Shown: piece by piece, positions 17,671 through 49,569 of the stretch
Position numbering within the stretch: the stretch's first letter is position 1
Layout of the letters: every line of letters begins with the position of its first letter
DNA from: a virus
Lineage: Duplodnaviria; Heunggongvirae; Uroviricota; Caudoviricetes
Direction: 5' to 3' (one strand)
Virus record (IMG/VR): IMGVR_UViG_2617271072_000004
Span: 1 to 64,000 of that record
DNA: 64,000 nucleotides
Position numbers and translations under genes: made by a program
Notes under the pieces: generated by a model
Databases searched by the model: none
What the model was told of the DNA's origin: nothing
Seen by the model: the letters and a program-made list of their open reading frames with translations, nothing else

Positions 17671-20600
17671 ATGAACAAGCTATCTATGGGGGTGTTTCGC
17701 TGTTCAAGTGTCAGCGAAATATTGAAATACATTAGTGCAATAACATCTCACCGAGCGCCGATTAGATACGGCGTGGAAAAGGTGGAAGGCAAAAGCTATG
17801 ACCGACTACGCCGGGAGGCGAATCAGAAGGCGATAGATTTGCTTAATTCGCTGGTGGACGGCGCGACACTGACAGATGAACAGCGCCAGATCCTGGCTGG
17901 GTACACCGGCGAAGGCGGCATTGGCGGGTCCGTCTCCGAATATTACACACCAAAGCCGATCGCTGAAGGTGTCTGGGAGATCATGAAGCTCTACGGCGCG
18001 GACGTAGGTAACACTCTGGAACCATCGGCGGGAACCGGCGTTTTTAATGAGACAAAACCGGTTGGTACGGTGATGACCGCGACTGAGATCAGCAGTGTTT
18101 CCGGTCGTATAAACCAGCTGTTGCACCCGGAAGACAGCGTACAGATTTCTCCGTTCGAACAACTGGCTGTAAGCACGCCTAACGATTCATTCGACCATGT
18201 TGTGGGTAACGTTCCGTTCGGTGGTCGTGATAACACACGCAACATCGATAAGCCTTACGCAGAAGAAACGGACATGGGTTCTTACTTCATGCTCCGCATG
18301 CTGGACAAGATAAAGCCAGGCGGATTCATGTGCGTGATTGTGCCGCCGTCCATTGTTTCAGGTTCAAACATGAAGCGGTTACGCCTGCGCCTATCACGGA
18401 AAGCTGAATTTCTTGGTGCCCACCGCTTGCCTACCGGTACTTTTGACGCAAACGGGACCAGTACAGTTGTTGATGTGGTGCTGATGCGCAAACATCCGGC
18501 AGAGATGGCTGAGAAAATCCCCCTGGTGGATGAAAGCACTCTCGAATCGGCAAATGTGCTTTGGCCAACGTTTATTTCTGGCAAGTGGTTTGAAAAGGAC
18601 GGCCGCCGGTTTGTTCATGGCACCCAGGAAAAGGGCTTCCAGGGGCGTATTGAGGTTCGTGCCGACGGTCAGATTGATAACCAGGCTCTTAAAGCGAAGC
18701 TGATTCATCGTTTCGAAAGCCGTATCGACTGGTCTTTGCTCGATATGGCTGAACCGTCACCGACCGCAGACGTTGTTGGTGAAGGGGAAATGCGCCTGAT
18801 TAATGGCGTATGGCAAAAATATGCTGGTGGTCGCTGGATTGAAGCTGATGCCGGGAAGGAACTTAAGATCGATGCTGCCAGTTATGGCGCGGATAGCTGG
18901 GAGGCTCTTCAGCGTAACCTGACTACAACAGAAGGCCGTCTCGGCATGACATTTACCCAGATGGCAAATGTCCGCGATAAGTACACCACATCAATCAGCG
19001 ACGATATGGTGCAGCTGGTGGACTGGATTAACAGCCAGCCTGAAAAATACCGTGAACGCTTGTATCGCGGGGCGATGATTGGCCGGATGTTAATTGAATA
19101 TCAGGACATGAAGGCCGCCGGGCATAGTGCTGAACAAATCGAACAGCAGCGCCTTTCTCTGGTATCCCGTTTGCAGGCAGAGATTGACCGTTTTGGTAAC
19201 CCCGGTCGCGGTCCGATAGCGAAATTGTCGGGGAGCGGTGCGCGCGCCTGGTTTGCTTTCCGTGGTGCAATTAAGCTGGATGGCACTATTTCTGACGAGC
19301 TGACAGGGAAGCTGGTTACGCATGATTCCAGCGCAAGTTATGACTCCACCAGCTATCAGGACACCCTGCGTTATCTCTATAGCGATCTCACCCGCGATCC
19401 AATCCAGCTCGATGATTTCCGCCTTGCGTTTACCGGCGAACTGCCAGCCAGTGATGAAGAGTTGCTTAATTTATTGGCCAGCACCCCTGGTATTGCGGTT
19501 TCACCGTATGGCGGGATTGTTCCGTTCGCCCGCGCCACCAGCGGCGACATTAACGAGATAGTGGCTCCAAAACAGGAATTCCTCGCCACACTCCCCGACG
19601 GTCCAGTAAAGAACAACGTCCTTAATCAGCTGGCAGCTATCGAAGAGAAGCGCATCAAGACGCCAGCAGAGAATATCCGGTTTAAGCTCAATAGCCGTTG
19701 GTTCGACCGTTCCGTCATTCTGGAATTTTTGCAGGAAAACGGCTATCCGGATCTGCGCTATGTGCAGTCAGTGCAGCTGGAAGGCGACGAAATGGTTTCT
19801 GACACCTATCACGGTGGTGATGGTCTGTTCGTCGGGCACCGATACGGTGTCGTCCAGCGCAAGGATAAAGAAACAGGTGAGATTCGCTACGAGTGGGACC
19901 GTAAATCAGGTGAAAACGCGACCGGGTTCCCGGCACAGCTGGAAAAGTATCTCAATGGTGCGCGTATCGGTGGCAAAGATAGCGCGACGGCGAACGGCTA
20001 CCGCGAGCAGATGGCACTGCTTGAGGACCAGTTCAATAAGTGGATCAAGACGCACGATCGCTACGATGAGCTGGTTGCCAAATACAACGATGTGTTCAAT
20101 AGCAATATCCCGTATGAACACTCTGGCGATCCGCTTGGGTTGAAGGGATTAAGCGGTAAGCGCCAGCCATTTGATTACCAGAATAGCGAGGTGCGCCGAC
20201 TGTCCGAAGATGGGCGCGGCATCCTGGGCTTCGGCACCGGGCTGGGTAAAACCACGACCGCGCTGGCGCTTGAGGCGTTCAACTATGAGAACGGTCGCTC
20301 CACCCGTACTGCTTATGTAGTGCCTAAATCAGTGCTGGAAAATTGGTATTACGAAGCAAAAGAATTCCTGAGTGAAGAGGCATTCAGTAACTACTTGTTC
20401 GTCGGTCTTGATGTGCTGATGGATGGCGATCAGATTCGCCAGGTGCCGGTGCTCAATGAGAACGGTAAACCTGTTCTTGGTACTGATGGCACTCCAGTTA
20501 TGCGCGATGCTCTTAAGCTGGCAGATGAAGCCACTATCACGGCGCGGATGAACGCGATCCCGCACTCAAATTACCGTGCAGTCGTGTTTACCAAAGAACA

Positions 20601-23600
20601 ATACGCCCGCATTCCGCTACGTGATGACACCGTAGATGAGCATGCACAAGACATGCTTTATGACTTCGTTGCCGCCGGGCGCGTAGCCAGCGCAATGGAC
20701 TCCGACTCCCACCGCAAAGAGGCGGCGCGTCGCCGGGTATTGTCGGAGTATTCAGATACCGGTACCGAAAAAGCAGAGAAGTATCCGTACTTTGAGGATA
20801 TGGGCTTCGACAGCGTGATCGCCGACGAAGGCCACAACTACCGCAATAGCTATAAAAATGGTCGCGAAGCGTCACAGCTGGCCTATCTGCCCACCAGCGC
20901 GGTGGCGCAATCGGCGCGAGATATGGCAATCAAAAACGCGTACCTGATGAAAAAGAATGGCGGGCGCGGACCGGTTCTCCTGACTGCAACGCCAGTCGTT
21001 AACACCCCGATCGATGCATACAACATGCTTTCTCATGTTCTGCCGAAAGAATACTGGCAGAAGATGGGGATCTACGGTCCTGATGACTTCGTTAAATTCT
21101 TCGGCAAGACCAGGCTGGAAACGGTACAGAAAATCAGCGGTGAAGTTGAAGAAAAAATGGCGCTGGTGGGCTTTGAAAACCTTGATGCGCTGCGCGGCAT
21201 ATTCCATCGCTGGACAACGCTTAAAACAGCGGAAGACGTTAAGGATACCGTGGAGATCCCGGAGCTGGACGAACACCAGCAGGATGCGCCACTTACTGAA
21301 GAACAACTGGCGGCGTATGAAGAATTGCGTCAGCAGGCGGAAGCGGCAGCCAAAGCCAACAATGGCGTAACGACCTCGGTCAATGAAGACGGCGTGATTG
21401 AGCACGAGAAAGCCCGTCCGATCTTCTCAATAATCAGGGATATGGACCGCGTATGTACTGACATGGACCTGTACTATCGCCGGATCACCTATCGTTTCCT
21501 GCCGGAGTACGCCGATGCGGTGCAGCAGCTGGCGGACAGTTTGCCTAAACAAGCCACCAGCGAAGACGACGACAGTGATGATTCAATCACGCAGCAATCG
21601 CAATACTCCCTGATAGATAAGGGCGAGTTTATTCAGTTGCAGGTTCCGGAAGCGTTCGAGCAGGAAGTGAATAAGCGCCTGGCCAGGTTTGGCATTGACG
21701 AACAGACCGTAACTCACCCCGTTACACCAAAATACGCGAAGCTGATCGCCACGCTGAAGGAGTTTTTCCCGGAAGGTAAGCAAATCATCTTCACCGATGA
21801 AAAAACGCAGCACCAGAAGCTCAAGCGCATTATCTGCAATGCTCTTAACCTTGAACCTTCAAAGGTGGGGATCCTGAATGCTCAGACGGTTGCCGAGGCA
21901 GGTAAAACCGGTAAGAAACTGAAAGCGGTTAAACCGCCGAAAGAGTTACCGGATGAACCAACAGATGCACAGATAGCGAAATACAACGAGCAAATGGCTC
22001 TGTATGACGCCTATATCGCGCAGCAAAATGAAATGTCGCTGGGCGGGCTGGAAAAGATTGCTGCCGACTTCCAGGAGGGACGGACTCCGATCATCATCTG
22101 CAACAAAAAGGCAGAGGTGGGTATCAACCTGCATCGAGGAACGACTGACATCCATCATCTGACGTTGCCATGGACACCAGCCAGTATCGCACAGCGTAAC
22201 GGTCGCGGTGCCCGAGTTGGCTCCAACCGTGCAAGCGTTCGCGTTCACTACTACTGCGGCAAGGGTTCTTTCGATGAATACCGACTGAAGACGCTGAAGC
22301 GTAAAGCAGGCTGGATCTCCGATATCCTCCGTTCAGATAAGTCAGAAATGGAGAACGCCGACGCCAACGATATGATCGAAATGCAGATGTATACCGCTAA
22401 GGATGATGGCGAACGTCTGGCAATGATGCAGGTTCAAATGGATAAGGCGAAAGCCGCGCAACGCGCTCGCCAGAAAGAACAGGCTACTATCGACCTTCAG
22501 AACTACATCAAGGCGCAGCACGCAGCTGGCGAGGATGTGGAGGTACTTACCGCTGAATTAGAGCGAAGCAAAGCGGAACTTGAAAAGACCACCGCCGAGG
22601 TAGCTAAATTCAAACAGGCGGTAATGGCCAAAGCAGCTGATAACGCAGACTGGAAAGCCCGCTGGGGTAGCGTCCATCACACAGACCGTACGTTGTTAGC
22701 ACAGTATCGCGCGTCGTTGAAAAGCGCCATTCAGCGCAAGGCTAATATCTCTCAAGCCATCTCCCGCTATGAGAAATTATTGAACCGTACTCAGAAGGCC
22801 GCGACGGATATCAAACGCCTGCGCCCGCTGGTGGAGGATGCAATAAATAAAGGCATTCTGGATGTTGATCCTGACCTGGTTAACCATGCGAGTGAGTTCC
22901 TTGTTATCGGCGATCGCTCATGGCGTGTAGGCCAATACTACGATTGTGCCGGTGATATCGTTCGCATTAAGTCGCTGGACTTCGACAGCCAGCGCGCAGA
23001 CGTGGAGATTATCTTTACCTTCAAAGGTACCAAATCGGGTAACTGGGATGTGAAGACGCTGGATAAACAGGTTGATGTAACTCCCGATGAAGATGCTGTT
23101 ATGCAGAAAATCAGTGGTGGCGTCTCCATCGCCGGGATTAACGACATCATTTCCTGTGACGATTTCTACCGTTTCCAGCAGCGCGGCATGATCAAAATCA
23201 CTGACTCATACGGCGTTCAGACTACAGAGTCAGGCTATAGCATCGATTTTGTTGGTACCTATTCGGACCCACTGAAGCATGCGGTTTACCCGGATCGCCG
23301 TGACGGCGCGCTGAAGTCGTCAATTGCAAAATGGGTGCTTGGTATGATGTCGGAAGGGAATAACCGCCAGATCCGTTCGGCAGAAACATTCCTGGTTGAA
23401 CTGTTTGGCTCCAATTATGGCGATGTAATCGCGTCATACGGAGATACGCTATCCCCTGAAGCAATTCAGGAGAAAATAGCGGATGCGATCGCCAGAATGC
23501 CGGAAAAAACAAGCCAGGGGGCTACTCGTAACGGGGATTCTGAACTTGAAGTCACCAATGCCATTTTCGGTACCAATGAGTTCCGGGCGTCAGATTATGA

Positions 23601-24438
23601 GATCACCACAGCACAGTTTGGCACCATTGGCATTTACAGCAATAAAGACGAGATCAAACAGTCAATGGACGCTGCAAGCGCGCGCATTGCAGCAGAACGC
23701 AAAGCCAATCTGAATCATGCAGTTTCCGCGCTGACTCAATCGTGGGTAACAGCAATCAGGGAGGCCGCCACCACAGGAAAAATCACACCGGCAATTGCGG
23801 ATGTCGTAAACGACGGCTCTAAATTTATGGATGCCTATAAAATGGATGCGGTGCAGTTGCCATCAGCCTATGGTCAACTCAGCTATCGCATGACCTACAA
23901 CCTGGTATCAATGTTTTCCGACCTTGCCATCCTTGGGCTGGTGGATCTTAACGAGGTTACGCCGGAATTGCTCAGCATGCGCAAGAATCATGTGGAGATA
24001 TTGCAGAGAATTAACACGGTTCTTGCCGGGCGCACCGATGAAGAGAAACAGGCCGACGCTGATCGGATAAACCTGGCCCTTGGCAACATCACGGAGGAAG
24101 AGATTGCCGCCAGAAACGAGAAACAAGAAGAGTTATCATCAATACAGGGTGATGCCACCAGCATAGCTCAGTCTCTTGGTCTGAATTATCGCGTATCCAC
24201 CGCCGACCTGAAGATGATGTACGCACCAAAATTCGCCGCTGGCGAGGTATTTGGGCTTCAGGAAGCCTCAGGCATGAAAGGCGTTCTTTTCCGTGCGAAA
24301 GACGCAATCAAGGCGAAATTCGGCGCTCGCTGGCTGCCAGCGAAGGCGAAGAACAGCGATTTCCCGGGTAACTGGTGGATTATCGAGACAAAACACAACG
24401 TGGCGGACGTTCTGGCCGTCATCCAACAATACGCATAA
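17671..24438 (+). CDS. darB: DarB antirestriction methyltransferase-helicase
   Basis: 2255 aa, the size of P1 DarB; N-terminal NVPF methylase-like motif, central DEGHNYRN and TATPVVNT helicase motifs. Confidence 0.9.
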   Translation: MNKLSMGVFRCSSVSEILKYISAITSHRAPIRYGVEKVEGKSYDRLRREANQKAIDLLNSLVDGATLTDEQRQILAGYTGEGGIGGSVSEYYTPKPIAEGVWEIMKLYGADVGNTLEPSAGTGVFNETKPVGTVMTATEISSVSGRINQLLHPEDSVQISPFEQLAVSTPNDSFDHVVGNVPFGGRDNTRNIDKPYAEETDMGSYFMLRMLDKIKPGGFMCVIVPPSIVSGSNMKRLRLRLSRKAEFLGAHRLPTGTFDANGTSTVVDVVLMRKHPAEMAEKIPLVDESTLESANVLWPTFISGKWFEKDGRRFVHGTQEKGFQGRIEVRADGQIDNQALKAKLIHRFESRIDWSLLDMAEPSPTADVVGEGEMRLINGVWQKYAGGRWIEADAGKELKIDAASYGADSWEALQRNLTTTEGRLGMTFTQMANVRDKYTTSISDDMVQLVDWINSQPEKYRERLYRGAMIGRMLIEYQDMKAAGHSAEQIEQQRLSLVSRLQAEIDRFGNPGRGPIAKLSGSGARAWFAFRGAIKLDGTISDELTGKLVTHDSSASYDSTSYQDTLRYLYSDLTRDPIQLDDFRLAFTGELPASDEELLNLLASTPGIAVSPYGGIVPFARATSGDINEIVAPKQEFLATLPDGPVKNNVLNQLAAIEEKRIKTPAENIRFKLNSRWFDRSVILEFLQENGYPDLRYVQSVQLEGDEMVSDTYHGGDGLFVGHRYGVVQRKDKETGEIRYEWDRKSGENATGFPAQLEKYLNGARIGGKDSATANGYREQMALLEDQFNKWIKTHDRYDELVAKYNDVFNSNIPYEHSGDPLGLKGLSGKRQPFDYQNSEVRRLSEDGRGILGFGTGLGKTTTALALEAFNYENGRSTRTAYVVPKSVLENWYYEAKEFLSEEAFSNYLFVGLDVLMDGDQIRQVPVLNENGKPVLGTDGTPVMRDALKLADEATITARMNAIPHSNYRAVVFTKEQYARIPLRDDTVDEHAQDMLYDFVAAGRVASAMDSDSHRKEAARRRVLSEYSDTGTEKAEKYPYFEDMGFDSVIADEGHNYRNSYKNGREASQLAYLPTSAVAQSARDMAIKNAYLMKKNGGRGPVLLTATPVVNTPIDAYNMLSHVLPKEYWQKMGIYGPDDFVKFFGKTRLETVQKISGEVEEKMALVGFENLDALRGIFHRWTTLKTAEDVKDTVEIPELDEHQQDAPLTEEQLAAYEELRQQAEAAAKANNGVTTSVNEDGVIEHEKARPIFSIIRDMDRVCTDMDLYYRRITYRFLPEYADAVQQLADSLPKQATSEDDDSDDSITQQSQYSLIDKGEFIQLQVPEAFEQEVNKRLARFGIDEQTVTHPVTPKYAKLIATLKEFFPEGKQIIFTDEKTQHQKLKRIICNALNLEPSKVGILNAQTVAEAGKTGKKLKAVKPPKELPDEPTDAQIAKYNEQMALYDAYIAQQNEMSLGGLEKIAADFQEGRTPIIICNKKAEVGINLHRGTTDIHHLTLPWTPASIAQRNGRGARVGSNRASVRVHYYCGKGSFDEYRLKTLKRKAGWISDILRSDKSEMENADANDMIEMQMYTAKDDGERLAMMQVQMDKAKAAQRARQKEQATIDLQNYIKAQHAAGEDVEVLTAELERSKAELEKTTAEVAKFKQAVMAKAADNADWKARWGSVHHTDRTLLAQYRASLKSAIQRKANISQAISRYEKLLNRTQKAATDIKRLRPLVEDAINKGILDVDPDLVNHASEFLVIGDRSWRVGQYYDCAGDIVRIKSLDFDSQRADVEIIFTFKGTKSGNWDVKTLDKQVDVTPDEDAVMQKISGGVSIAGINDIISCDDFYRFQQRGMIKITDSYGVQTTESGYSIDFVGTYSDPLKHAVYPDRRDGALKSSIAKWVLGMMSEGNNRQIRSAETFLVELFGSNYGDVIASYGDTLSPEAIQEKIADAIARMPEKTSQGATRNGDSELEVTNAIFGTNEFRASDYEITTAQFGTIGIYSNKDEIKQSMDAASARIAAERKANLNHAVSALTQSWVTAIREAATTGKITPAIADVVNDGSKFMDAYKMDAVQLPSAYGQLSYRMTYNLVSMFSDLAILGLVDLNEVTPELLSMRKNHVEILQRINTVLAGRTDEEKQADADRINLALGNITEEEIAARNEKQEELSSIQGDATSIAQSLGLNYRVSTADLKMMYAPKFAAGEVFGLQEASGMKGVLFRAKDAIKAKFGARWLPAKAKNSDFPGNWWIIETKHNVADVLAVIQQYA

Positions 24439-27178: not shown

Positions 27179-27439
27179 TTAGTGCATGATGTTTGCCATC
27201 TCATAGGCGTCAGCCAGTAACTCCATCTCTGACTTGTTCAGCAAGGTGAATTCTTTCTTGCCTCCAACCACACCATCGGCATGAACAGGGACCAGCCAGG
27301 GGTATTTTTCTCTTACTTCAGCCGGTGCTGCATGCTGGTGGTACCATCTACAAAGTGGCAACTGCTTTTTGTGACAACCCGGCGCGGTACGACCGGAGAT
27401 ATGGTGCAGAGACACCTCTTCAGATATTACTCCATGCAT
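27179..27439 (-). CDS. hypothetical ORF abutting the Tn3 truncation point
   Basis: 86-aa ORF; may be the remnant of a backbone gene. Confidence 0.3.
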   Translation of the reverse strand: MHGVISEEVSLHHISGRTAPGCHKKQLPLCRWYHQHAAPAEVREKYPWLVPVHADGVVGGKKEFTLLNKSEMELLADAYEMANIMH

Positions 27440-28458
27440 ATAGCAGGCAATGCAGGGGAGAGCGCCAATGCAGATTTATCCAGATCCTTCAGCGAGCGGA
27501 GCCGTTTTTTCTGCCCAATCTTTCTGGCGTCACGGATGATAACGGCCAGCATGGCGTCCAGAACGTCCAATGCATCATCCAGCGCCAGCGTTTCCCATGC
27601 AAGGACAAAGGCAACCAGAACCGCCATCCTTTTCTGCGGTGACATCCTGGCAATATTGAACACCGAAGTCATACCAGCATAACGTGCGAGATTTTTCAGG
27701 CGCACAGCCGGGAGTGTACTCAGGTTTTCAGCATGCAGGCCAAAATCGTTCAGAGTTTTCCAGCGTTCAATTGCTTCATTAAACGCCGGACCACTGATGG
27801 TCACAGGGCCCTTTTTCAGTGATTCCAGTAAAGACAGGCGGCTGCAATCAGTTGGCCCCAGCAGCATCTCCAGCTGTGAACGCTGTTCGGCTGACGGTAT
27901 CAGTGCCAGTTTGTTCCACAGGCGCAACGTCGCCTTTTCCCTTACCTCTGAAATCAACCGGGTCAGCGTAGTGGCTCCGGGGAGAATAATACGATGTTGC
28001 ATAAGCCACCCTGTCGCCAGATCGAAAAGCAGGCCAGGACGTTCGTTGCTTATCCAGCTCCGGGTATATAAAAGACGGGTAAGGCGAAATGTCCAGGGCC
28101 AGGCAAATTCACGATACTGATAGTGCTGACGTATCAGCGCTGCATGCTCACGGCGGGTATTTTCCCTCTGACCGTATTCTGCAAGAACGGTGATATCACG
28201 AATCCCGAGCTGTCTGGCGGTAAAATGCCGGACGCCGGAAGGAATATGATTCATATCGGTGAGGAAGGTGCCCAGAAAACGGACACATCCAATTTGCAGG
28301 GCAATGCCCAGACGGTTGTGATCACCTCTGCTTTTTCCGATAAATTCCTTGTCTGCTTCATCAAGGTGAAAATATCGTGCCAGCTGAAGCTCATCCGGTT
28401 CACCGGTGAATCTGCCATAGCTTTCAGTCTGCTCAGTGGTCAGAAAGTCAACGGGCAT
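27427..28458 (-). pseudogene. tnpA: Tn3 transposase, N-terminal ~340 aa only
   Basis: MPVDFLTTEQTESYGRFTGEPDELQLARYFHLDEADKEF... Full TnpA is ~1000 aa. Confidence 0.9.
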
Positions 28459-29180
<722 letters not shown>

Positions 29181-29341
29181 TACGATAGGTTAATGTCATG
29201 ATAATAATGGTTTCTTAGACGTCAGGTGGCACTTTTCGGGGAAATGTGCGCGGAACCCCTATTTGTTTATTTTTCTAAATACATTCAAATATGTATCCGC
29301 TCATGAGACAATAACCCTGGTAAATGCTTCAATAATATTGA

Positions 29342-30214
<873 letters not shown>

Positions 30215-30323
30215 CTGTCAGACCAAGTTTACTCATATATACTTTAGATTGATTTAAAACTTCATTTTTAATTTAAAAGGATCTAGGTGAAGATCCTTTT
30301 TGATAATCTCATGACCAAAATCC

Positions 30324-30361
30324 CTTAACGTGAGTTTTCGTTCCACTGAGCGTCAGACCCC
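30324..30361. repeat. Tn3 38-bp right terminal inverted repeat
   Basis: CTTAACGTGAGTTTTCGTTCCACTGAGCGTCAGACCCC. Confidence 0.9.
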
Positions 30362-30384: not shown

Positions 30385-30411
30385 AGCCTGGCTCCTTGCC
30401 AGGCTTTTTTA
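30385..30411 (+). terminator. rho-independent terminator just outside the Tn3 right end
   Basis: AGCCTGGC-TCCTT-GCCAGGCT followed by TTTTTTA. Confidence 0.55.
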
Positions 30412-30721
30412 TTTCATCATGGAAGCTGTTAACGCTTTGGATCTTGCTGAACTGATTGAAAGGGCATTGTTTACCTTACCCAGGAGTTCGCCAAATTCCG
30501 CCATCACTCTAGTAAGCCCGCGCCGCGCTTCCTCCTCCGTTGCATTCATCACAAAAATGTTCAGCACTCCGCATGCTTTTAACGGGGAACGCAACAGATA
30601 TCGAGTCGATATCAGGCATCCTATCGCTCAACTTTACGGTGACAATGACAGATGGTGACTGAATTTGAGAGCTTACAGACAGCACCACATATTTTCCGTC
30701 TATTTTGAAATCCTTCCGCAT
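30409..30721 (-). CDS. hypothetical C1-controlled small gene downstream of cre, two frames
   Basis: ORFs 30509-30721 and 30409-30594 overlap in different frames; operator-like site just upstream. Confidence 0.3.
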
Positions 30722-30737
30722 GTGTCACCATAAATAT

Positions 30738-30754
30738 CAAATAATTAGAGCAAT
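30738..30754 (-). promoter_or_regulatory. C1 operator-like 17-mer
   Basis: Reverse complement ATTGCTCTAATTATTTG. Confidence 0.5.
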
Positions 30755-30771
30755 CAAGCGTAAATAAACGG

Positions 30772-31804
30772 CTAGTCGCCATCTTCCAGCAGACGCACCA
30801 TTGCCCCCGTTTCACTATCCAGGTTACGAATGTAGTTCATGACAATATTTACGTTGGTCCAGCCACCAGCTTGCATGATCTCCGGTATTGAAACTCCGGC
30901 GCGGGCCATATCTCGCGCGGCACCGACACGGGCACTATGTCCAGACCAGGCCAGGTATCGCTGACCAGAGTCATCTTTTGCCCCGTAAATCAATCGGTGA
31001 GTTGCTTCAAAAATCCCTTCCAAGGCGCGAGTTGATAGCTGGCTGGTGGATGATGGCGCGGCAACACCATTTTTCTGACCCGGCAAAACAGGTAGTTATT
31101 CGGATCATCAGCTACACCAGAGACGGAAATCCATCGCTCGACCAGTTTAGTTACCCCCAGGCTAAGTGCCTTCTCTACACCTGCGGTACTAACCAGCGTT
31201 TTCGTTCTGCCAATATGGATTAACATTCTCCCACCGTCAGTACGTGAGATATCTTTAACCCTGATCCTGGCAATTTCGGCTATACGTAACAGGGTGTTAT
31301 AAGCAATCCCCAGAAATGCCAGATTACGTATATCCTGGCAGCGATCGCTATTTTCCATGAGTTGAACGAACCTGGTCGAAATCAGTGCGTTCGAACGCTA
31401 GAGCCTGTTTTGCACGTTCACCGGCATCAACGTTTTCTTTTCGGATCCGCCGCATAACCAGTGAAACAGCATTGCTGTCACTTGGTCGTGGCAGCCCGGA
31501 CCGACGATGAAGCATGTTTAGCTGGCCCAAATGTTGCTGGATAGTTTTTACTGCCAGACCGCGCGCCTGAAGATATAGAAGATAATCGCGAACATCTTCA
31601 GGTTCTGCGGGAAACCATTTCCGGTTATTCAACTTGCACCATGCCGCCCACGACCGGCAAACGGACAGAAGCATTTTCCAGGTATGCTCAGAAAAACGCC
31701 TGGCGATCCCTGAACATGTCCATCAGGTTCTTGCGAACCTCATCACTCGTTGCATCGACCGGTAATGCAGGCAAATTTTGGTGTACGGTCAGTAAATTGG
31801 ACAT
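30772..31804 (-). CDS. cre: Cre tyrosine recombinase, reading frame broken three times
   Basis: MSNLLTVHQNLPALPVDATSDEVRKNLMDMFRDRQAF... Indels vs canonical cre at runs 31692-31696, 31382-31383, 31070-31074. Confidence 0.9.
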
Positions 31805-32220
31805 TTAACACTCAGATAATAGTTTTAAGTAAAGTGTACAGGATTGGCTCTGCCTTTACCTGTTTATGGTTCTCGTCATAGAAACGCCAGCGACCGCGCG
31901 TGCGTTCTATTTTCTCTTCACCGCGCGATAATGACAGTTGGCAACTATCACGATCAAACCCTTTTGCCCGCCAGTAACCACGGTTTTTCTCAAGCTCAAG
32001 ATGAGTGGACACTTTAGCAGCTGAATATCCCATTTTTCACCTCTGATTGATTGGTGGTGCTAAGTGCGCTACGCGAAATCTGGAGCACTAACACTGCCAA
32101 CATTTCGCAGATTTTACGTAGCGCAACCTTGATCAAATGATCAAGTGATCACTATTTAACCTGATAAGGTATTGAACTGTATGGATTTACAGGTAAATTG
32201 ATCATGTTCAATAACCCTTA

Positions 32221-32254
32221 AGATAACTTCGTATAATGTATGCTATACGAAGTT
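32221..32254. other. loxP recombination site
   Basis: Exact ATAACTTCGTATA-ATGTATGC-TATACGAAGTTAT. Confidence 0.98.
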
Positions 32255-32299
32255 ATTAGGTCCGAAGAGGAGTTTACGTCCAGCTGCGCATAAAAATCA

Positions 32300-32316
32300 A
32301 GAATTATTAGAGCAAT
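32300..32316 (-). promoter_or_regulatory. C1 operator-like 17-mer in immC control region
   Basis: Contains reverse complement of ATTGCTCTAATAA. Confidence 0.55.
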
Positions 32317-41952: not shown

Positions 41953-42189
41953 TTAGTGAGTTAGCAGTTCCAGTTCATTTTTGATGATTTCCGCATGAGC
42001 ATCATCGTTATCAACACTTAGCTCGTTTAATGCTTCTCGCACTACATCAACTTCTTCAGGCTGAAAGAAGTCGTCGCGGTAATCACCAAATAGAACCGAA
42101 ACCAGCCTGCCACCAGCAACATCAAGATTGGCGCTAACAGGTGGCTCTTTGCCATCCTCAAATTCGACTACAAAAGTTAATTTTCCCAT
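41953..42189 (-). CDS. hypothetical small acidic protein
   Basis: 78-aa ORF. Confidence 0.4.
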   Translation of the reverse strand: MGKLTFVVEFEDGKEPPVSANLDVAGGRLVSVLFGDYRDDFFQPEEVDVVREALNELSVDNDDAHAEIIKNELELLTH

Positions 42190-44166: not shown

Positions 44167-44512
44167 CTTACAGCGTACCCTTTCTTCCGCCTGTTCTGTG
44201 ACGCAGTAGGCTTACGCTTTGCGGCAAAAGCCACCTGACCAAATGGATGGAGTACCGCTATCTTATGGTTGCTAATAACCAGCTCCACCACACGCACAGG
44301 TCGCTGTAAAAAAAAGTCGTTTTGCCTTACGGTTTTTCATCGCTTTGCTCTCCTGCGTCTCTTTGCTGCTCGTCGTGCCGCTGCAATACCGGTATGGCGG
44401 CGCTTTGGTGCCGGGATGATGTTGTCAGCCATCAGGACATGTGGCTTTGCAATTAGCGCAGAAGCCCAAAAACGAGTCGGGTACGGTAACAAGCCGATAC
44501 ATGCCACACGCA

Positions 44513-46905: not shown

Positions 46906-47134
46906 TGGCTGCCTCCTTTGCGGAGTTGCGCTTCGATGCACGAAAAAAAAGACTCCCGAGTATGACTGTTAAGAGCTGGTGCGAACGCCGCGTTAAGAAC
47001 GGCAGCATCACAGCCGTCATCAATATAGAGCGCAATTTTTTTTCTCCAGGCGCGCTTTGGCTTCCTGCAACTGCATACCCCGGCACGCACGCGGGATATA
47101 ATCAGCAATTTGAGCGATAGCTTTTTCGTTCTGT

Positions 47135-49496: not shown

Positions 49497-49569
49497 ATGC
49501 CCTCCTCATTGGACGAAAAAAAATGCTGGTGGGCGCACTCCACCAGCATTAAAAGTGACGCTGTAACTA

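What the first reader, a model, noticed from the sequence alone, without database searches (positions are those of the whole stretch)
30772..32254. cre reading frame is broken three times while loxP is perfect
The canonical 34-bp loxP is intact at 32221-32254, but cre is divided into three ORFs by one-base run-length changes at 31692-31696, 31382-31383 and 31070-31074 relative to the canonical cre I recall. If real, plasmid dimer resolution and cyclisation would be lost; more likely it is consensus error.
Basis: partly seen in the sequence, partly recalled or inferred. Interest (0 to 1): 0.4.

Follow-up and report, generated by a model that had tools for sequence, protein, structure and literature searches.

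The report
Broken cre is probably sequencing error
The cre recombinase gene of this P1-like plasmid is split by three one-base changes, but the same kind of change breaks at least eight other genes nearby, so it is almost certainly an assembly error and not a biological loss of Cre.

Summary
Undoing them gives a 343-aa Cre identical to the intact allele WP_029396411.1, one residue from P1 Cre (A252S), with all catalytic residues present.

The window is the first 64 kb of contig CBWN010000116.1, draft assembly GCA_000529855.1, E. coli ISC7, a P1-like phage-plasmid. About 20 private one-base indels are scattered across it. Nearly all lie in A/T runs, 16 of 20 are +1, and the rate rises with run length (4 of 5 eight-base runs). 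They also break c8, portal, dGTPase, two tail genes, the DnaB-type helicase and others.

Over 28-64 kb, indels outnumber substitutions 19:12. Two finished relatives differ by 57 substitutions and 2 gaps. None of the three cre variants appears in about 700 related plasmids or 48 viral contigs.

Low interest.

The parts
30772..31804 (-). cre as written: 1033 nt, four ORF pieces (38, 108, 122 and 104 aa). A 343-codon Cre is restored by undoing three one-base changes.
31692..31696 (.). Break 1: A5 on the + strand (T5 in cre sense) where all relatives have 4. This +1 stops translation after codon 38.
   Evidence: the variant was absent from IMG/VR
31362..31363 (.). Break 2: TT where all relatives have a single T (+1).
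   Evidence: the variant was absent from IMG/VR
31070..31074 (.). Break 3: T5 on the + strand (A5 in cre sense) where relatives have 6 (-1). This is the longest homopolymer in cre.
   Evidence: IMG/VR has 0 contigs with T5 and 48 with T6. The same frameshifted peptide (RVRKMVLPRH) occurs in fragmented cre calls of other NCBI assemblies.
32223..32256 (+). loxP, a perfect 34/34 match (13-bp inverted repeats around the spacer ATGTATGC).
31812..32033 (-). cra (73 aa), intact, upstream of cre.
   Evidence: no difference from NZ_CP142951.1
30409..30721 (-). c8 (lysogeny establishment, 103 aa in relatives), directly downstream of cre. It is also broken, by A5 instead of A4 at 30553-30557.
27457..30361 (.). 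Tn3-family remnant carrying blaTEM-30, inserted in ref about 400 bp from the cre stop codon. It carries one more private run change (T6 for T5 at 28493-28498) and a 9-bp deletion after 29184.

Best explanation
The locus is the ordinary cre-loxP module of a P1-like phage-plasmid of E. coli ISC7 (draft assembly GCA_000529855.1, contig CBWN010000116.1). The three frame breaks in cre are most likely homopolymer-length miscalls in the assembly consensus, not mutations in the plasmid. The real plasmid most likely encodes a normal 343-aa Cre. By established P1 biology (not tested here), Cre acts on the intact loxP to resolve plasmid dimers and to cyclise infecting DNA.

Shown here: the indels, their context, their window-wide pattern, and the exact restoration of an intact allele.
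Inferred: that the cause is technical.
For: 1. Repair. Against the nearest relatives, the 1601-bp cre-loxP segment has 0 substitutions and 3 one-base indels. Undoing them gives a protein identical to WP_029396411.1. That protein is annotated intact in at least three independent plasmids (NZ_CP142951.1, NZ_CP148988.1, NZ_CP062890.1), and many more plasmids carry the same DNA. It differs from P1 Cre only by A252S, and R173, K201, H289, R292, W315 and Y324 are present. It matches PDB Cre chains at E about 1e-230.

2. Purifying selection. Against P1 cre there are 18 nucleotide substitutions but only one amino-acid change. The allele was under purifying selection and shows no decay other than the indels.

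3. Window-wide pattern. There are 20 private one-base indels. Eighteen lie in A/T runs of 4 or more, none in 196 G/C runs of 4 or more, and 16 are +1 against 4 that are -1. The rate rises with run length: 7/156 runs of 5, 3/14 runs of 7, 4/5 runs of 8 (tests).

4. Other broken genes. These indels also break a 123-aa gene, dGTPase, portal, c8, a 208-aa gene, two tail genes and the DnaB-type helicase. Undoing the 20 indels restores 11 of the 16 ORFs that read as broken. The other 5 are apparently unannotated or extended ORFs in a single relative. None of the 11 restored ORFs needed a substitution to be repaired.

5. Ratio of difference types. Over 28-64 kb there are 12 substitutions and 19 indel events against nearest neighbours. 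Finished relatives L005 and L011 differ by 57 substitutions and 2 gaps over 31.7 kb. Fisher P = 1.5e-9.

6. Privacy. No record among 705 PLSDB plasmids, 700 complete E. coli genomes or 24 phage records exceeds 99.8% identity, so none shares any of the three indels. IMG/VR has 0 contigs with any of the three variants and 48 with the intact T6 context.
Against: - cre carries more events than the window-wide rate predicts: 3 observed against 0.17-0.28 expected, uncorrected P about 0.0007-0.003.
It is still a local excess.
- Five one-base events and a 9-bp deletion fall in 28.4-31.7 kb, next to the transposon remnant.
- One of the three events is a 1-to-2 change, not a long homopolymer.
- Real slippage mutations also favour A/T runs.
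- The sequencing platform and reads could not be retrieved, so there is no direct proof.
Confidence: 0.9

Rival explanations
1. cre is a true pseudogene. The ISC7 P1-like plasmid is a decaying, defective phage-plasmid that has lost Cre and several phage genes through slippage frameshifts, while loxP persists as a relic.
For: Frameshifts at A/T runs are a common natural mutation type. cre has more hits than expected from the window-wide rate. A plasmid can persist without portal, tail or Cre functions. The neighbouring ref gene is truly disrupted by a transposon remnant, so the region has been rearranged.
Against: There are three frameshifts and zero substitutions in 1.6 kb against relatives from several countries. 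With the peer indel fraction of 0.037, three of three differences being indels has P about 5e-5. Every annotated gene found broken is restored by undoing one-base indels alone, with no nonsense substitution involved. Four of five 8-base A/T runs are +1 with almost no substitutions nearby, which no natural process is expected to produce. No other record shares any of the three alleles.
Confidence: 0.06
2. Mixed case: one of the three changes is a real inactivating mutation (most plausibly T6 to T5 at 31070-31074, the longest run in cre) and the other two are consensus errors.
For: The same A6-to-A5 frameshift peptide (RVRKMVLPRH) recurs in fragmented cre calls from other NCBI assemblies, so this run is a recurrent site of change. 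There is a local excess of events in cre.
Against: Recurrence at the longest run is equally expected from sequencing error, and those other assemblies also carry multiple cre frameshifts. The T5 variant is absent from 48 IMG/VR contigs and from all close relatives. Nothing distinguishes this event from the other 19.
Confidence: 0.03
3. The breaks are functional: programmed ribosomal frameshifting, transcriptional slippage or phase variation regulates Cre production.
For: No positive evidence beyond two of the three breaks lying in 5-base A/T runs.
Against: The net shift is +1 across three separate sites needing +1, +1 and -1 corrections. The runs are only 2-5 bases long. Every relative encodes the same protein in one uninterrupted frame. 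The same type of change breaks unrelated genes throughout the window.
Confidence: 0.01

Closest known systems
Cre-loxP of phage P1 (NC_005856: cre 436-1467, lox at the genome origin)
   Same: Same gene order (c8, cre, cra, loxP, coi/c1 side). loxP is identical, 34/34. The repaired Cre differs from P1 Cre by one residue (A252S) and keeps all catalytic residues.
   Different: 18 mostly synonymous nucleotide differences from P1 cre. As written, three one-base indels stop translation after 38 codons.
Cre allele WP_029396411.1 of natural P1-like E. coli plasmids (e.g. pEC190329_2 NZ_CP142951.1, NZ_CP148988.1, NZ_CP062890.1)
   Same: 0 substitutions over 1601 bp. The repaired protein is identical.
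   Different: Only the three run-length changes. Those records annotate an intact 343-aa integrase.
Homopolymer-length consensus errors in draft assemblies (known from flow-based and long-read platforms; general knowledge, platform not identified here)
   Same: One-base changes confined almost entirely to homopolymers. The rate rises steeply with run length, there is a directional bias (16 +1, 4 -1), many unrelated genes are frameshifted, and indels exceed substitutions.
   Different: Two of the 20 events are not in runs of 4 or more (31362, 57097). Only A/T runs are affected. The cause is not confirmed from reads.

Membership tests
Cre (P1-type tyrosine recombinase) | Single open reading frame of about 343 codons, colinear with P1 Cre | tested here: not met
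   As written there are four ORF pieces and translation from the ATG stops after 38 codons. The feature is met only after undoing three one-base changes, which gives 343 aa identical to WP_029396411.1.
Cre (P1-type tyrosine recombinase) | Catalytic residues R173, K201, H289, R292, W315, Y324 | tested here: met
   All are encoded in the DNA and present in the repaired reading. In the sequence as written they lie in separate fragments.
Cre (P1-type tyrosine recombinase) | Phage_integrase catalytic domain and near-identity to solved Cre structures | tested here: met
   PF00589 hits the 122-aa and 104-aa fragments (E 4.5e-15 and 2.6e-11). The repaired protein matches 1nzb_A and other Cre chains at E 4e-230 over residues 1-343.
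Cre (P1-type tyrosine recombinase) | Recombination activity on loxP | not testable with these tools
   Needs a lox reporter assay with the ISC7 plasmid.
loxP site | Two 13-bp inverted repeats ATAACTTCGTATA around the 8-bp spacer ATGTATGC, next to cre | tested here: met
   Exact 34/34 match at 32223-32256, one copy, 0 expected by chance. It lies 419 bp from the cre start codon.
P1-like phage-plasmid (Punavirus) | Synteny and high identity with P1-like plasmids (darB, ref, c8, cre, cra, c1, pacAB, phd/doc, tail genes, ban) | tested here: met
   96-99.8% identity to hundreds of P1-like plasmids and to P1 itself. Gene order is as in the annotated relatives.
Assembly consensus (homopolymer) error | Indels confined to homopolymers, with rate rising with run length and a directional bias | tested here: met
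   18 of 20 events are in A/T runs of 4 or more. Rates are 7/156 (5-mers), 3/14 (7-mers) and 4/5 (8-mers). 16 are +1 and 4 are -1.
Assembly consensus (homopolymer) error | Indel-to-substitution ratio far above that between finished relatives | tested here: met
   12 substitutions and 19 indel events over 28-64 kb, against 57 substitutions and 2 gaps between L005 and L011. P = 1.5e-9.
Assembly consensus (homopolymer) error | Many unrelated genes, including essential phage genes, broken the same way and restored by undoing the indels | tested here: met
   Portal, dGTPase, c8, two tail genes, the DnaB-type helicase and others are broken. 11 of 16 broken ORFs are restored; the remaining 5 are apparently unannotated or extended ORFs.
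Assembly consensus (homopolymer) error | Raw reads or independent resequencing disagree with the consensus at these sites | not testable with these tools
   Reads and platform for GCA_000529855.1 were not retrievable. Paper searches found nothing.
True pseudogene | Signs of relaxed selection (substitutions, nonsense codons) or sharing of the lesion by sister lineages | tested here: not met
   0 substitutions against the intact allele. There are 18 nucleotide differences from P1 but only one amino-acid change. The three lesions are private among about 1400 related records and 48 IMG/VR contigs.

The most novel reading that the evidence does not exclude
cre is truly inactivated in the E. coli ISC7 P1-like plasmid while loxP stays perfect. 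That would be a natural Cre-less phage-plasmid carrying blaTEM-30 that maintains itself without its own dimer-resolution and cyclisation recombinase, presumably relying on host recombination and its partition and addiction systems.
Probability: 0.06. Interest if true: 0.25.

Novelty: not a real feature. Interest (0 to 1): 0.06.

Why it matters
Biologically it matters little: cre-loxP here is the textbook module. The practical value is as a quality flag.

- This contig, and probably the whole GCA_000529855.1 assembly, carries about one homopolymer miscall per 3 kb.
- Its fragmented proteins in public databases should not be read as pseudogenes or novel short proteins. One example is CDL28016.1 / UniRef100_W1F0Z7, a 122-aa piece named 'GST-loxP-cre recombinase fusion protein'.
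- If the breaks were real, the plasmid would be a natural Cre-less P1 relative. That would be of modest interest for how phage-plasmids avoid dimer catastrophe.

Tried and rejected
- Sequencing platform: I looked for the platform or a paper for the assembly or strain (CBWN01, GCA_000529855, ISC7 and sibling strain names). Nothing useful was found.
- Sister plasmid: I looked for a plasmid sharing the unique ref/transposon junctions, which would have given a same-lineage control for cre. No PLSDB record spans either junction contiguously.
- TEM-30 plasmid: I fetched one to test whether the T6 run at 28493 and the 9-bp deletion are lineage markers. There IS26 sits directly upstream of bla, so it was uninformative.
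- Private-difference count: a first attempt that required at least two relatives at 97% identity or more excluded the cre region and was confounded by mosaic recombination. I replaced it with a nearest-neighbour analysis per 500-bp bin.
- Programmed frameshifting, slippage or phase variation: rejected, because three sites need different corrections, the runs are short, and all relatives have one open frame.
- Selective targeting of cre: the local excess is real but modest after multiple-testing correction. It extends to c8 and the transposon remnant. That fits a locally poor consensus near a repeated element, which is an inference and was not shown.

Full report
**What is in the sequence**

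cre lies on the minus strand at 30772-31804. cra (31812-32033) and loxP lie upstream of it, and c8 (30409-30721) lies downstream. The canonical 34-bp loxP occurs once with no mismatch at 32223-32256.

I aligned window 30700-32300 with the closest relative, NZ_CP142951.1 (plasmid pEC190329_2). The alignment shows no substitution and exactly three one-base indels:
- A5 for A4 at 31692-31696.
- TT for T at 31362-31363.
- T5 for T6 at 31070-31074.

The same three indels appear against P1 NC_005856 cre, together with 18 substitutions. The middle one (31382-31383) is 20 bp off; the sequence there agrees with P1 cre.

The changes are +1, +1 and -1, so the frame is not restored. There are four ORF pieces (38, 108, 122 and 104 aa), not three. 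Translation from the cre ATG ends after 38 codons.

**What the repaired gene is**

Undoing the three changes gives a 1032-nt ORF. Its 343-aa product is identical to WP_029396411.1. That protein is annotated intact in several independent plasmids, including isolates from Ireland, China and Canada.

It differs from P1 Cre only by A252S and keeps R173, K201, H289, R292, W315 and Y324. It matches solved Cre chains at E about 1e-230 over the full length. Pfam finds the Phage_integrase domain split between the third and fourth fragments.

Of the 18 nucleotide differences from P1 cre, only two adjacent ones change an amino acid. This allele was shaped by purifying selection and shows no decay apart from the three indels.

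**Where the window comes from**

The 122-aa fragment carries a frameshift-specific tail. As an exact sequence it occurs on a single contig: NCBI GCA_000529855.1, CBWN010000116.1, 96,725 bp. Contig coordinates equal window coordinates. The protein record is CDL28016.1 from Escherichia coli ISC7.

The contig is a P1-like phage-plasmid. It is 96-99.8% identical in mosaic fashion to hundreds of E. coli plasmids and to P1, P7, SJ46 and RCS47.

**The decisive comparison: is cre special, or is the whole window like this?**

I fetched eleven stretches of relatives (L001, L003-L007 and L009-L012 were used for the comparison, and L002 is P1) and mapped every difference to window coordinates.

Twenty private one-base indels are spread from 11 kb to 62 kb:
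- Eighteen lie in A/T runs of four or more.
- None lies in the 196 G/C runs of four or more.
- Sixteen are +1 and four are -1.
- The fraction of runs affected rises steeply with length: 1/459 four-base runs, 7/156 five-base runs, 2/48 six-base runs, 3/14 seven-base runs and 4/5 eight-base runs.

The composition and direction biases are individually significant (P = 0.019 and 0.012).

These indels break other genes that are intact in every relative:

| Position | Gene affected |
|---|---|
| 11243 | 123-aa gene |
| 12102 | anti-phage dGTPase |
| 16697 | portal protein |
| 30553 | c8 |
| 52624 | 208-aa gene |
| 56207 | tail gene |
| 57097 | tail gene |
| 61826 | DnaB-type helicase |

When all 20 indels are undone, 11 of the 16 ORFs that read as broken become intact. 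The five that remain are apparently unannotated or extended ORFs seen in a single relative. Every annotated gene found broken is therefore explained by one-base indels, with no nonsense substitution needed.

**Indels against substitutions**

In a nearest-neighbour comparison over 500-bp bins, the interval 28-64 kb has 12 substitutions and 19 indel events. Two finished relatives, L005 and L011, were compared over the same genes. They differ by 57 substitutions and 2 gaps in 31.7 kb. Pooled peer pairs give 629 substitutions and 24 gaps. The window's ratio differs from the peers at P = 1.5e-9.

With the peer indel fraction of 0.037, three of three cre differences being indels has a probability of about 5e-5 under natural divergence.

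**Are the three variants seen anywhere else?**

No. The best hits are all 99.8%, which corresponds to the three gaps. This holds among 705 PLSDB plasmids, 700 complete E. coli genomes and 24 phage records. All ten fetched stretches that contain cre (nine relatives and P1) have A4 and T6, and the nine in which the pattern for the middle site matched have a single T.

In IMG/VR the intact T6 context occurs in 48 contigs. The T5, A5 and TT variants occur in none.

The protein cluster holding the 122-aa fragment also contains other fragmented Cre calls from other NCBI assemblies. Several carry the same RVRKMVLPRH frameshift at the A6 run, and some contigs carry more than one cre fragment. Multiply-broken cre is thus a recurring feature of some deposited assemblies. 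This fits run-length miscalling at the longest homopolymer of the gene.

**Caveat**

cre has more events than the window-wide rates predict. Three are observed against 0.17 expected from run-class rates outside cre, or 0.28 from length alone. The uncorrected P is 0.0007-0.003.

The excess is regional, not specific to cre. Five one-base events and a 9-bp deletion fall in 28.4-31.7 kb, spanning the transposon remnant, c8 and cre. I infer a locally poorer consensus next to a repeated element. I could not show this, because neither the reads nor the platform were retrievable.

**Conclusion**

The cre-loxP module is the ordinary P1 one. The triple break is best explained as homopolymer-length error in a draft consensus (confidence about 0.9). 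A real pseudogene (about 0.06) or a mixed case (about 0.03) cannot be formally excluded without reads or resequencing. Programmed frameshifting or phase variation is effectively excluded.

Its coordinates for loxP and for the middle break need correction.

**Noticed in passing**

A Tn3-family remnant at 27457-30361 is inserted in ref:
- It has only one 38-bp terminal repeat, at 30324-30361.
- tnpA is cut to 343 codons; tnpR and bla are intact.
- Only the C-terminal 78 aa of Ref remain.

Its bla differs from TEM-1 by one base (C to A at 30074, Ambler R244S). It is 100% identical to genes annotated blaTEM-30, an inhibitor-resistant allele. No PLSDB plasmid shares either insertion junction.

Noticed in passing
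window 29354-30214 (+): The beta-lactamase is not TEM-1. One base (C to A at 30074) gives R241S in the precursor, which is Ambler R244S. The gene is 100% identical to genes annotated blaTEM-30, an inhibitor-resistant TEM, here on a P1-like phage-plasmid.
   Followed up: yes
window 27179-30361: A Tn3-family remnant is inserted in ref. It has only one 38-bp terminal repeat (30324-30361). tnpA is truncated to 343 codons (27427-28458), tnpR is intact (28623-29180), and Ref is reduced to its C-terminal 78 aa (27179-27415). No PLSDB record shares either junction.
   Followed up: partly
window 29184/29185: A 9-bp deletion (CCTATTTTT) lies between tnpR and bla, relative to the Tn3 copy in NZ_CP122640.1. 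It removes one arm and the loop of the small palindrome CCTAT-TTTT-ATAGG upstream of the bla promoter region. Whether it is real or an artefact is not resolved.
   Followed up: partly
window 11243, 12102, 16697, 30553, 52624, 56207, 57097, 61826: One-base run-length changes break eight other genes that are intact in all relatives: a 123-aa gene, the anti-phage dGTPase, portal, c8, a 208-aa gene, two tail genes and the DnaB-type helicase (ban). All are restored by undoing the indel.
   Followed up: yes
window-wide; e.g. 44308-44315, 47036-47043, 49516-49523, 56207-56214: Four of the five 8-base A/T runs in the window are one base longer than in every relative. No G/C run is affected. This is a strongly length-dependent, composition-specific, mostly +1 bias.
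   Followed up: yes
window 56154-56162 and 41973-41977: There are two in-frame 3-base differences from relatives: an A9 run where the one relative aligned here (L005) has A6, inside the 405-aa tail gene, and a GCA insertion near 41973-41977. I did not determine whether these are real variation or further consensus problems.
   Followed up: no
protein cluster of the 122-aa cre fragment (P0002-P0015): Other NCBI assemblies also carry fragmented cre calls on contigs of about 95-98 kb. These include the same frameshift at the A6 run (RVRKMVLPRH) and a recurrent DQFVHS frameshift. Multiply-broken cre recurs in public assemblies.
   Followed up: partly
window 17671-24438 (+): The 2255-codon N-6 DNA methylase gene (darB-like) is intact over 6.8 kb despite the error rate elsewhere. 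The indel density is visibly higher in 28-64 kb than in 17-27 kb.
   Followed up: no
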